Assembly (NCBI GenBank): GCA_964035545.1
Contig: OZ037772.1
Span: 4,530,233 to 4,594,232, forward strand
DNA length: 64,000 nucleotides
Direction of reading: 5' to 3'
From: Bugula neritina
Taxonomy: Eukaryota > Animalia > Bryozoa
The number at the start of each line of letters is the position of its first letter. The first letter of the stretch is position 1. The notes beneath the pieces are model-generated. The model was not told the origin of the DNA and did not search any database. It saw nothing but the letters and a program-made list of their open reading frames with translations. Made by a program: the position numbers and the translations under genes. Positions 2,709 through 20,700 of the stretch are shown here, in pieces.

Positions 2709-5700
2709 GTGGGTTTATTATCTTATGTGATATATTTTGTTATATGTTGTATCACATACTATATGTTATTATATTATATGTTATATGTTGTATTACATAC
2801 TATATGTTATTATATTATTATATGTTATGTGTTGTATTACATACTATACGTTATTATATTATATGTTATATATTGTATTATGTCTTATATGTTATTATAT
2901 TACATGTTATATATTGTATCGTACAAAATCATTTTACGTGTTATATATTACATTACATGCTTCGTTATTATATTACATACTATATATACTTATTGTATTT
3001 TCTACATATGATATAGCAATATAATTATATGCTATATACCTCTAAATCAATATTATAGTAGATTATATTCTAAACTATGACATCATAGCCCATATTCTAT
3101 GAAATGATGTCATATTATATTTTATTGTCTGTATCATATTACTGCAATATACGTAACACCATATTGTATATATAATATATAATAATATATTGGGTGATTA
3201 TATGTATGTATATATTATATCTAGTACATGTTCTTGTTGACTTATGAGATAGCCTACAATATTCTATTTTATAAAATTTATCAGCCGACACCAACCTGTA
3301 TTCAGTGCTTCTTTATTGGTAGTGATGAGGACTATAGCTGGTCGGCCCACAACGACTACTGCAGATGGTCTGGCGATCTAGGGCCGAGTTTGAATAGAGA
3401 TTTTCCGGCAGATTCCGCCTGGTGTTTCGATGAGAATAATTATGTCATTCACTGCGAGGTGTATCCGTGTGGTTGTGAGTTATTATTTTATATACTGTGA
3501 GTTATTATATTATATATTGTGAGTTATTATATTATATACTATGAGTTATTATATTATATACTATGAGTTATTATATTATATACTATGAGTTATTATATTA
3601 TATACTGTGAGTTATTATATTATATACTGTGAGTTATTATATTATATACTGTGAGTTATTATATTATATACTATGAGTTATTATATTATATACTATGAGT
3701 TATTATATTATATACTGTGAGTTATTATATTATATACTGTGAGTTATTATATTATATACTGTGAGGTATTATATTATATACTGTGAGTTATTATATTATA
3801 TACTATGAGTTATTATATTATATACTATGAGTTATTATATTATATACTATGAGTTATTATATTATATACTATGAGTTATTATATTATATACTGTGAGTTA
3901 TTATATTATATACTATGAGTTATATTATTATATACTATGAGTTATTATATTATATACTGTGAGTTATTATATTATATACTGTGAGTTATTATATTATATA
4001 CTATGAGTTATTATATTATATACTATGAGTTATTATATTATATACTATGAGTTATTATATTATATACTGTGAGTTATTATATTATATACTATGAGTTATT
4101 ATATTATATACTATGAGTTATTATATTATATACTATGAGTTATTATATTATATACTATGAGTTATTATATTATATACTATGAGTTATTATATTATATACT
4201 GTGAGTTATTATATTATATACTGTGAGTTATTATATTATATACTATGAGTTATTATATTATATACTATGAGTTATTATATTATATACTATGAGTTATTAT
4301 ATTATATACTGTGAGTTATTATATTATATACTGTGAGTTATTATATTATATACTGTGAGTTATTATATTATATACTATGAGTTATTATATTATATACTAT
4401 GAGTTATTATATTATATACTATGAGTTATTATATTATATACTGTGAGTTATTATATTATATACTATGAGTTATTATATTATATACTATGAGTTATTATAT
4501 TATATACTATGAGTTATTATATTATATACTATGAGTTATTATATTATATACTATGAGTTATTATATTATATACTGTGAGTTATTATATTATATACTGTGA
4601 GTTATTATATTATATACTATGAGTTATTATATTATATACTATGAGTTATTATATTATATACTGTGAGTTATTATATTATATACTGTGAGTTATTATATTA
4701 TATACTATGAGTTATTATACTATATACTATGAGTTATTATATTATATACTGTGAGTTATTATATTATATACTGTGAGTTATTATATTATATACTATGAGT
4801 TATTATATTATATACTGTGAGTTATTATATTATATACTGTGAGTTATTATATTATATACTGTGAGTTATTATATTATATACTGTGAGTTATTATACTATA
4901 TACTGTGAGTTATTATAATATATACTGTGAGTTATTATATTATATACTATGAGTTATTATATTATATACTATGAGTTATTATATTATATACTGTGAGTTA
5001 TTATATTATATACTATGAGTTATTATATTATATACTATGAGTTATTATATTATATACTATGAGTTATTATATTGTATACTATGAGTTATTATATTATATA
5101 TTATGAGTTATTATATTATATACTGTGAGTTATAATATTATATACTATGAGTTATTATATTATATATTATGAGTTATTATATTATATACTGTGAGTTATT
5201 ATATTATATACTATGAGTTATTATATTATATACTATGAGTTATTATATTATATACTTTGAGTTATTATATTATATATTATGAGTTATTATATTATATACT
5301 GTGAGTTATTATATTATATACTATGAGTTATTATATTATATACTATGAGTTTTTATATTATATACTATGAGTTATTATATTATATACTGTGAGTTATTAT
5401 ATTATATATTATGAGTTATTATATTGTATACTATGAGTTATTATACTATATACTATGAGTTATTATATTATATACTATGAGTTATTATATTATATACTGT
5501 GAGTTATTATATTATATACTATGAGTTATTATATTATATACTGTGAGTTATTATATTATATACTGTGAGTTATTATATTATATACTGTGAGTTATTATAT
5601 TATATACTGTGAGTTATTATATTATATACTATGAGTTATTATATTATATACTATGAGTTATTATATTATATACTATGAGTTATTATATTGTATACTATGA

Positions 5701-17700: not shown

Positions 17701-20700
17701 TTATATTATATACTGTGAGTTATTATATTATATACTATGAGTTATTATATTATATACTGTGAGTTATTATATTATATACTGTGAGTTATTATATTATATA
17801 CTGTGAGTTATTATATTATATACTGTGAGTTATTATATTATATACTGTGAGTTATTATATTATATACTGTGAGTTATTATATTATATACTGTGAGTTATT
17901 ATATTATATACTGTGAGTTATTATATTATATACTATGAGTTATTATATTATATACTGTGAGTTATTATATTATATACTATGAGTTATTATATTATATACT
18001 GTGAGTTATTATATTATATACTATGAGTTATTATATTATATACTGTGAGTTATTATATTATATACTATGAGTTATTATATTATATACTGTGAGTTATTAT
18101 ATTATATACTATGAGTTATTATATTATATACTATGAGTTATTATATTATATACTATGAGTTATTATATTATATACTGTGAGTTATTATATTATATACTGT
18201 GAGTTATTATATTATATACTATGAGTTATATTATTATATACTGTGAGTTATTATATTATATACTATGAGTTATTATACTATATACTGTGAGTTATTATAT
18301 TATATACTGTGAGTTATTATATTATATACTATGAGTTATTATATTATATACTATGAGTTATTATATTATATACTATGAGTTATTATATTATATACTGTGA
18401 GTTATTATATTATATACTATGAGTTATTATATTATATACTGTGAGTTATTATATTATATACTATGAGTTATTATATTATATACTATGAGTTATTATATTA
18501 TATACTGTGAGTTATTATATTATATACTGTGAGTTATTATATTATATACTGTGAGTTATTATATTATATACTGTGAGTTATTATATTATATACTATGAGT
18601 TATATTATTATATACTGCGAGTTATTATATTATATACTATGAGTTATTATACTATATACTGTGAGTTATTATATTATATACTGTGAGTTATTATATTATA
18701 TACTTTGAGTTATTATATTATATACTGTGAGTTATTATATTATATACTGTGAGTTATTATATTATATACTATGAGTTATATTATTATATACTGTGAGTTA
18801 TTATATTATATACTATGAGTTATTATACTATATACTGTGAGTTATTATATTATATACTGTGAGTTATTATATTATATACTATGAGTTATTATATTATATA
18901 CTGTGAGTTATTATATTATATACTGTGAGTTATTATATTATATACTATGAGTTATTATATTATATACTATGAGTTATTATATTATATACTATGAGTTATT
19001 ATATTATATACTGTGAGTTATTATATTATATACTATGAGTTATTATATTATATACTGTGAGTTATTATATTATATACTTTGAGTTATTATATTATATACT
19101 GTGAGTTATTATATTATATACTATGAGTTATTATACTATATACTATGAGTTATTATATTATATACTATGAGTTATTATATTATATACTGTGAGTTATTAT
19201 ATTATATACTATGAGTTATTATATTATATACTATGAGTTATTATATTATATACTATGAGTTATTATATTATATACTATGAGTTATTATATTATATACTAT
19301 GAGTTATTATATTATATACTTTGAGTTATTATATTATATACTATGAGTTATTATATTATATACTATGAGTTATTATATTATATACTTTGAGTTATTATAT
19401 TATATACTATGAGTTATTATATTATATATTATGAGTTATTATATTATATACTGTGAGTTATTATATTATATACTGTGAGTTATTATATTATATACTATGA
19501 GTTATTATATTATATACTGTGAGTTATTATATTATATACTATGAGTTATTATATTATATACTGTGAGTTATTATATTATATACTATGAGTTATTATATTA
19601 TATACTATGAGTTATTATATTATATACTATGAGTTATTATATTATATACTATGAGTTATTATATTATATACTTTGAGTTATTATATTATATATTATGAGT
19701 TATTATATTATATACTGTGAGTTATTATATTATATACTATGAGTTATTATATTATATACTATGAGTTATTATATTATATACTTTGAGTTATTATATCATA
19801 TACTATGAGTTATTATACTATATACTATGAGTTATTATATTATATACTATGAGTTATTATATTATATACTGTGAGTTATTATATTATATACTGTGAGTTA
19901 TTATATTATATACTATGAGTTATTATATTATATACTATGAGTTATTATACTATATACTATGAGTTATTATATTATATACTATGAGGCATTATTATATTGT
20001 ATCCTGTGAGTTATTATATTATAAACTGTTTCCAGACCCCAACAATGAGTGGAGACACAACTCCAACAAATGGCCAGTTGATGCTCCAATGACCACGGCA
20101 CTCTTCACAGAAGGTGTGACAACTCTACAGGGTGACTATGTCCAAGGGTTGGGCTACTACGAGTACGTCCCGGAATACTTCAGATGTGTGGTTCAGAGAA
20201 AGGCTAAGTCGGAATCCCAGAGCTACCTAGAAAGTGTGAGCTACTCTTACATTTAGATTCACTGCGGCGCTGTCTTTAGTTGCTGCCCGTGTTTTCAGCA
20301 GCATTTTACTATTCCTTGCTGATCAAGAATATTCAGTTAAAAAAACTAAAGCAGTCTCCTTGTCATCAATATATTGCAAATAATATTAAAAAAAACTTCT
20401 GTAAACATCTAAAGAATTGTATAACCTATTTTTTTGTATGCTACGCTAACTAAACTATTACACTAGATAAACGGGTTATATAGAATTTTTATAAAAAGCC
20501 TTGAAAACCCCTCAGTATTTGATACTCACTAAAATTCATGATCTAATCAAAATTCTTCATCTGTCATTGCGTCATCCAATAGATTTAACGTGTTAATTCA
20601 CTACATGTAAGTTGCTCCATTAAAATGCCTCAACACATGTATTCTTGGGAAAACCCTGACTTTCCCCTACACGCATATCCTCTCGGGATTACCTGAACTT

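What the first reader, a model, noticed from the sequence alone, without database searches (positions are those of the whole stretch)
3475..20035. A 16.5-kb intron made almost wholly of copies of its own 5' splice donor
Seen: the 22-bp unit begins with the real donor GTGAGT and continues to within a few nt of the acceptor. The intron therefore has hundreds of CT|GTGAGT consensus donors and practically no unique sequence for a branch point. Using the next donor shifts frame, and read-through hits TGA at 3498-3500. Inference: the spliceosome must pick the first of hundreds of near-identical U1 sites. The array could act as a U1 snRNP landing or decoy platform, permit stepwise splicing, or tune expression through NMD.
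Basis: partly seen in the sequence, partly recalled or inferred. Interest (0 to 1): 0.78.

Follow-up and report, generated by a model that had tools for sequence, protein, structure and literature searches.

The report
Giant splice-donor minisatellite fills whole intron
A 16,500-base intron of an animal gene consists almost end to end of 752 copies of a 22-base unit, about half of which repeat the intron's own splice-start signal; a close relative, which likely has only a few copies, splices at the first signal, so this is likely a recent, near-harmless overgrowth of a repeat type already known from human and lancelet genes.

Summary
Intron 3475-20035 is 752 tandem 22-bp units, from the donor to 6 nt before its end. 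Only 390 begin with GTGAGT; 357 lack the GT. A spliced contig from a close relative (run X8) joins 3474 directly to 20036, so the exons belong to one gene. That relative has the same unit, by read depth only about 4-30 copies, and a GTAAGT first donor; the giant array is therefore probably recent. Splicing in the window's own lineage was not seen. Internal donors score like real ones and all lead to premature stops. The intron's only CAG is the real acceptor and 749 of 753 AGs are GAG, so pseudo-exons and recursive splicing lack usable sites. Best reading: a near-neutral donor-anchored minisatellite whose first donor wins by position, like human F7 intron 7, ABCA7 intron 18 (up to about 427 units) and lancelet 'mirages'. 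Decoy, recursive or NMD-tuning functions are unsupported. This scan has noted the same kind on other genomes many times. Less ordinary: 17 of 28 other arrays in this gene also start within 20 nt of a donor (3.2 expected).

The parts
2570..2708 (+).
   Evidence: Model; the loose end before 3323 in X8 record 25 matches this exon's 3' end
3323..3474 (+). Exon 2, 152 nt, ends in phase 1
   Evidence: X8 record 25 covers exactly 3323-3474 with 5 differences
3475..3480 (+). Authentic 5' splice site GTT|GTGAGT (GTAAGT in the relative's DNA)
   Evidence: X8's loose end behind 3474 is the start of exon 3; 3477 G>A in X2 and X4
3475..20029 (+). 22-bp minisatellite, 752 units, 390 starting GTGAGT, filling all but the last 6 nt of the intron
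3498..3500 (+). In-frame TGA reached by read-through or by any donor from unit 3 on
20006..20035 (+). Last, diverged unit running into the acceptor; 20033-20035 is the only CAG in the intron
20036..20235 (+). Exon 3, 200 nt
   Evidence: X8 record 25 starts exactly at 20036 and joins on to 21068; model
21068..22988 (+). Exons 4-7 (21068-21209, 21647-21803, 22348-22418, 22830-22988) of the same transcript
   Evidence: Joints in X8 record 25, which reaches 22957; open frame of 293 codons over exons 2-7
24248..63288 (+). Rest of the modelled gene (45 further exons; TSP1 and cysteine-rich repeats), many introns with donor-proximal minisatellites
   Evidence: Exons placed by eye plus frame search, some boundaries uncertain, no RNA check; Pfam

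Best explanation
The intron is a donor-anchored minisatellite that likely grew from a few copies to 752 recently and near-neutrally, and the spliceosome likely uses the first donor because of its position, not its sequence. Steps: (1) Shown: the unit starts at the donor GT and the array fills the intron. (2) Shown in a relative: exon 2 is joined to exon 3 at the first donor. (3) Inferred from depth: the relative has only a few units, so the giant size arose (or was lost) after the two lineages split; shared blocks of 18-31 units at scattered offsets point to growth by block duplication. (4) Inferred: U1 is committed at the first donor by exon definition across the 152-nt exon 2 and by 5'-to-3' first-come selection, as shown for human F7 intron 7. 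(5) Shown in sequence: later donors have no usable acceptor in front of them, so they cannot define exons, and the single CAG fixes the 3' end. (6) Inferred: occasional use of donor 2 or 3 gives premature stops cleared by NMD, as for ABCA7, so the array costs little.
For: Junction 3474->20036 in X8 record 25. The relative's DNA has the same unit after a GTAAGT donor. Summed depth on the repeat peaks near 1,050 (X2; flank 30.7) and 580 (X4; flank 42.4) against about 370,000 in the best holder X1, giving rough upper bounds of 10-29 and 4-12 units. Internal donors match the true one in matrix score (7.2 vs 8.2 bits) and predicted accessibility (0.36 vs 0.32 unpaired), so neither explains the choice. 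749 of 753 AGs are GAG, 3 TAG, 1 CAG, whereas 43 confident acceptors are 24 CAG, 17 TAG, 2 AAG, 0 GAG. No purge of competitors: units 2 and 3 keep GT, and the GT share is 0.35-0.64 along the array. 26 of 51 model introns carry arrays with unrelated units. Exons 2-7 differ from X8 by 14 synonymous and 11 non-synonymous changes, pN/pS 0.20, P=1e-4. Precedents: PMC1557585, PMC5954066, PMC3087553.
Against: The RNA evidence is one contig from one study, from a relative with a short array and a different (GTAAGT) first donor; splicing across the real 16.5-kb array was not seen. Assembled contigs drop rare forms, so minor donor use is invisible. The depth figures are not copy numbers (the tool says so), and X1 showed no cover of exon 2, so its single-copy depth is unknown. 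The pN/pS value cannot be assigned to the lineage with the long array. In ABCA7, long alleles do change splicing (more skipping of the next exon), so neutrality is not guaranteed.
Confidence: 0.72

Rival explanations
1. Length-dependent splicing damage or tuning: the long array lowers the amount of correct mRNA (donor 2/3 use, exon skipping, NMD), so array length acts as a cis-regulatory variant, as in ABCA7, whether selected or not.
For: All internal donors give premature stops. Donors 2 and 3 lie 22 and 44 nt from the real one and score about as well. The window's first donor equals the copies at +1..+6, while the relative's differs. In ABCA7, use of the second unit's donor occurs and exon-19 skipping rises with VNTR length (PMC5954066, section 21).
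Against: In ABCA7, retention of one unit did not change with length (same section). In F7 the pseudo-donors stay silent (PMC1557585). No RNA of this lineage was available to show any effect.
Confidence: 0.13
2. Functional U1 platform or decoy, or stepwise (recursive) removal of the intron.
For: 389 extra consensus donors on one pre-mRNA could bind U1.
Against: Recursive splicing needs AG|GT sites: only 2 exist (AGGT at 3764 and 12306), both GAG|GT. By inspection, joining donor 1 to an internal AG leaves no GT, and joining an internal donor to the real acceptor leaves no AG. About half of the units (357 of 752) lack the GT, without positional pattern. Close relatives apparently do with few units.
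Confidence: 0.05
3. The array length is inflated by assembly, or the gene no longer splices in this lineage.
For: No read spanning the array could be examined; X1 gave no cover of exon 2; no RNA holder from this lineage was laid.
Against: The array has an irregular variant code: the longest exact internal duplicate is 682 bp (31 units; 9-14 units in 20 shuffles), which is not the pattern of a looped assembly. X1's repeat depth fits 752 units at a single-copy word depth of about 34-420, depending on record length. Reading frames and splice sites are intact.
Confidence: 0.1

Closest known systems
Human ABCA7 intron 18 VNTR (PMC5954066; seen: passages and section 21)
   Same: 25-bp unit whose first two bases are the exon's splice donor; 12 to about 427 units (298-10,678 bp); use of the second unit's donor gives a frameshift and NMD.
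   Different: GC-rich there, AT-rich here. 752 units and 16.5 kb here, filling the intron to 6 nt from its end. No expression or polymorphism data here.
Human F7 intron 7 37-bp VNTR, with 6-16 (IFI6), CBS intron 13, lamin B2 and PDGF intron 4 as listed there (PMC1557585; seen: abstract, introduction, discussion)
   Same: The authentic donor is followed by identical pseudo-donors; only the first is used in F7, the first three in 6-16 and CBS; 5'-to-3' selection was shown by mutagenesis.
   Different: 5-9 units in F7 and 25 pseudo-sites in 6-16, against 389 further donors here. The F7 unit copies 4 exon bases; here only the T at -1 is shared.
Lancelet 'mirage' minisatellites, Adh3 and globins BflGb6/BflGb9 (PMC3087553; seen: passages)
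   Same: Invertebrate tandem repeats at exon-intron boundaries; many but not all units keep splice signals; normal splicing; length instability; edge units escape homogenisation (unit 1 here also differs from the consensus).
   Different: Mirage units span the boundary and carry exon sequence; 3-6 units in BflGb6.
Sequence (intron/exon) stuttering on chicken dot chromosomes (PMC12954441; seen: abstract, first part of section 7, passages)
   Same: Most introns of a gene hold their own locally expanded repeat, confined by exons; some copy the adjacent splice site; recent and variable.
   Different: There it is confined to dot microchromosomes and repeats are less regular. The parts read report no bias of purely intronic arrays to the donor end, which this window shows.

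Membership tests
Donor-anchored minisatellite (F7/ABCA7 type) | Head-to-tail array of minisatellite-sized units in an intron | tested here: met
   22 bp x 752
Donor-anchored minisatellite (F7/ABCA7 type) | First unit contains the authentic 5' splice site | tested here: met
   Unit 1 starts at 3475, the donor used in X8 record 25
Donor-anchored minisatellite (F7/ABCA7 type) | Donor sequence reiterated in later units | tested here: met
   389 further GTGAGTTA copies, 7.2 bits each
Donor-anchored minisatellite (F7/ABCA7 type) | Normal splicing at the most upstream donor | tested here: inconclusive
   Seen in one contig of a relative with a short array; not seen for the 752-unit allele
Donor-anchored minisatellite (F7/ABCA7 type) | Variable length (VNTR) | tested here: inconclusive
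   Large difference between lineages inferred from depth; variation between individuals of one lineage not examined
Lancelet 'mirage' / chicken exon stuttering (strict sense) | Unit carries a piece of the exon as well as the splice site | tested here: not met
   Exon side GTT at the true donor, ACT in 387 of 389 copies. Met for another array in the window, 49512-50344
Recursively spliced intron | Internal AG|GT ratchet sites with a usable acceptor (definition recalled) | tested here: not met
   2 AGGT in 16.5 kb, both after GAG; 0 of 43 confident acceptors use GAG
Recursively spliced intron | Saw-tooth nascent RNA or intermediate lariats | not testable with these tools
   Only assembled contigs were available

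The most novel reading that the evidence does not exclude
In this animal, new minisatellites are born preferentially right at 5' splice sites: 17 of 28 other arrays start within 20 nt of a donor against 3.2 expected, and 3 end that near an acceptor. This would mean a splicing-linked mutational hotspot at donors (for example U1- or polymerase-linked pausing or R-loops), and the 752-unit array would be its extreme product and a natural 390-donor test of first-come donor choice.
Probability: 0.22. Interest if true: 0.62.

Novelty: new member of a known kind. Interest (0 to 1): 0.3.

Why it matters
As a single locus it extends a known oddity: about 390 equal donors, against 4-8 extra in F7 and up to about 427 units in ABCA7, in an intron with almost no unique sequence. 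If correct splicing is confirmed in this lineage, it shows that positional choice of the donor plus one CAG are enough to define a 16.5-kb intron. The pair of lineages (few units against 752) offers a natural experiment on whether array length changes splicing. The donor-end bias of arrays in this gene could point to where and why intronic minisatellites arise, if it holds genome-wide.

Tried and rejected
No whole genome is held, so no genome-wide test of the donor-end bias was possible. No RNA holder was listed on record; X8 is an 'RNA?' guess, treated as RNA because record 25 is joined across six exons at model splice sites. X1 gave no cover of 3230-3471, and X4, X5 and X7 gave none of most of exon 3 at 90% likeness; neither hole is used as evidence. 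Structure masking the internal donors: rejected, unpaired probability 0.36 (40 sampled internal donors) against 0.32 (true donor) and 0.33 (51 other model donors). DNA hairpin as the driver of expansion: rejected, eight units fold worse than 197 of 200 shuffles. Selective loss of GT near the true donor: rejected, units 2 and 3 keep GT and the first 150 units have 0.44-0.45 GT against 0.53 overall. Homologue searches with single exons: none at E<=0.001 for exon 3 (3 candidates) or exon 33574-33840 (18 candidates); the representative library gave one near-identical 52-aa fragment; the ESM Atlas gave nothing above 0.79. Pfam: 12 of 13 early exons and 13 of 18 later exons had no hit. L001 is a chance match on an 8-residue word; no other exon hits it at E<0.01. 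ARAGORN found no tRNA. Literature on donor-end bias of intronic minisatellites: 0 papers; it included a guessed animal-group name that no call supports; 1 human review, listing only; 0; 0. These phrase searches of a partial library do not show that it is unpublished. One search (recursive splicing with tandem repeats) gave 1 paper, listing only, not used. Supplements of the four papers were not opened.

Full report
What is there. Tandem Repeats Finder gives one array at 3474-20029, period 22, 752.1 copies, 95% matches, no indels. The intron 3475-20035 starts with GTGAGT and ends ACTGTTTCCAG, so the array leaves 6 nt at the 3' end. Of 752 units (748 of 22 nt, 3 of 25, the last of 30), 390 start GTGAGT, 5 start with another GT and 357 lack GT. 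The true donor reads GTT|GTGAGT and 387 of the copies read ACT|GTGAGT, so the unit begins at the donor and copies no exon sequence. Read-through meets TGA at 3498-3500. Donor 2 shifts the frame and stops early in exon 3; every later donor retains the TGA.

The intron is real. Eight runs hold part of 20030-23000, from 2 studies; none is on record as RNA. Record 25 of run X8 (1,302 nt, depth 33.5, 'RNA?') lies on 3323-3474 at record positions 699-850 and on 20036-20226 at 508-698, then joins on to exons at 21068, 21645, 22349 and 22833. Its loose end behind 3474 is the first 30 nt of exon 3, and its loose end before 3323 is the end of the upstream exon. This is a spliced transcript using the first donor. 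It comes from a relative (5 differences in exon 2's 152 nt). Over exons 2-7, the 25 single-base differences listed for X8 are 14 synonymous and 11 non-synonymous on 180 and 699 sites, pN/pS 0.20, P=1e-4. Three short replaced blocks at exon ends were left out of that count. It is one contig from one study, and contigs do not show rare forms.

The giant size is probably recent. DNA runs X2 (same sample as X8) and X4 carry exon 2 followed by a GTAAGT donor, a first unit with three differences from the window's, and then the same 22-bp unit. Summed depth on the repeat peaks near 1,050 in X2 (flank 30.7) and 580 in X4 (flank 42.4), against about 370,000 in X1, the best holder of the window's DNA. 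A rough conversion gives at most 10-29 units for X2 and 4-12 for X4, unrelated repeats included. X1's signal fits 752 units at a single-copy word depth of 34-420, depending on assumed record length. The tool warns that these depths are no copy number, and X1's own single-copy depth was not seen, so this is an order-of-magnitude inference. X4 record 18 runs from 54 nt of repeat into a 30-nt loose end whose last 15 letters match the window's acceptor region at 14, by eye; I infer that it is the orthologous 3' end, but its continuation was not displayed. The direction of change is not polarised; expansion is more likely than loss because this intron is over four times longer than any of the other 50 model introns (162-3,805 nt). 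The array is not a simple loop: its longest exact internal duplicate is 31 units (682 bp), six runs reach 18 units or more at offsets of 21-173 units, and 20 shuffles give 9-14. That fits growth by block duplication followed by mutation.

Why the first donor is chosen. A matrix from 44 other model donors scores the true donor 8.2 bits, the internal ones 7.2 and the relative's 7.7; the median of the 44 is 7.4. Predicted accessibility is alike (0.32 true, 0.36 for 40 sampled internal donors). Competitors are not purged: units 2 and 3 keep GT. Sequence and structure therefore do not single out the first donor; position does. The 3' side is sharply defined: 749 of 753 AGs follow G, 3 follow T, and the only CAG is the real acceptor, while 43 confident acceptors in the window are 24 CAG, 17 TAG, 2 AAG and 0 GAG. 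Only donor 1 and its nearest neighbours have a usable acceptor an exon's length upstream; exon definition is established knowledge, applied here by inference. Pyrimidine content before internal AGs (0.59) equals that before the true acceptor (0.58), so the -3 base carries this argument, not the tract. No YTRAY lies at -50..-12, but 25 of 43 acceptors also lack it, so a degenerate branch point in the last units is plausible. Recursive splicing has only two AG|GT sites, both GAG.

Context. A by-eye model refined by a frame search gives 52 exons and about 2,880 codons on the + strand without a break; several boundaries are uncertain and only exons 1-7 have RNA support. Pfam finds TSP1 domains (one above cut-off, 37543-37716) and weak DUF7107-type cysteine-rich repeats, which suggests a large extracellular animal protein; no full-length relative was found. 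The organism was not identified. 26 of 51 model introns hold an array of at least 100 bp, period 5 or more and 3 or more copies; one further array (63436-63867) fell outside the model and was dropped. Leaving out the focal intron, 17 of 28 arrays start within 20 nt of the donor (3.15 expected under uniform placement; 0 of 200,000 simulations) and 3 end within 20 nt of the acceptor; with confident donors only, it is 15 of 24 against 2.79. Three more introns reiterate their own donor: 31502 (13 further copies of +1..+8), 35833 (13; donor uncertain) and 49526 (20). The null ignores constraint near acceptors and later insertions, and this is one gene.

Comparison with what is known. Human F7 intron 7 has a VNTR whose units repeat the donor. 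Only the first donor is used, the pseudo-donors work when those upstream are mutated, and the paper lists 6-16, CBS, lamin B2 and PDGF as similar (PMC1557585; abstract, introduction, discussion). ABCA7 intron 18 has a 25-bp unit starting at the donor GT, up to about 427 units; use of the second unit's donor gives NMD-sensitive RNA that does not vary with length, while skipping of the next exon does (PMC5954066; passages and section 21). Lancelet 'mirages' and chicken 'stuttering' are the multi-locus versions (PMC3087553, passages; PMC12954441, abstract, first part of section 7 and passages); both leads came from earlier notes of this scan and were then read. Those notes (unchecked AI notes) list 16 similar findings on other genomes, one with about 1,930 donors in an 83-kb array; nothing was on file for this genome or look-alike stretches.

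Verdict. It works like, and on the tested features belongs with, F7/ABCA7-type donor-anchored minisatellites; it fails the strict 'mirage' criterion of copied exon sequence. It is a large, clean, probably recent example: a new member of a known kind, interest 0.3. The open, more novel lead is the donor-end bias of arrays across this gene.

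Noticed in passing
window 49512-50344: 33-bp x 25 array whose unit copies the last 14 nt of the exon plus the donor. 22 donors, all in frame, and the exon frame stays open through the array to a stop at 50344. Using later donors would add 11-residue cysteine-containing repeats without NMD. No RNA check.
   Followed up: partly
window 31502-32417: 29-bp array starting at the donor GTACTC; as in the focal array, about half of the units lack the +1 G (14 GTACTCAC, 16 TTACTCAC).
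   Followed up: partly
window 35831-36177: 25-bp x 14 array starting at a model donor GTTAGT, repeated in 13 further units; donor position uncertain.
   Followed up: partly
window 2709-62143 (whole gene): Arrays cluster at the donor end of introns: 17 of 28 start within 20 nt of the donor, 3.15 expected.
   Followed up: partly
window 21490-21600 and 30586-30660: Short tRNA-like (SINE-like) elements seen by eye; the first draws very high contig depth in four runs. ARAGORN calls no tRNA.
   Followed up: partly
window 25455-28233 and 28792-29211: The same 48-bp unit forms two separate arrays (58 and 9 copies) in one intron, about 560 nt apart.
   Followed up: no
window 29244-29400, 33840-34560, 38456-39200, 42322-42500, 62144-62570: Exon boundaries where the frame search forced weak or doubtful sites; a GC donor near 29387 or missed small exons are possible.
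   Followed up: no
window 3475-20029, minus strand: Each GT-bearing unit reads as an acceptor-like ...ACTCACAG on the opposite strand; it would matter only if an antisense transcript exists.
   Followed up: no
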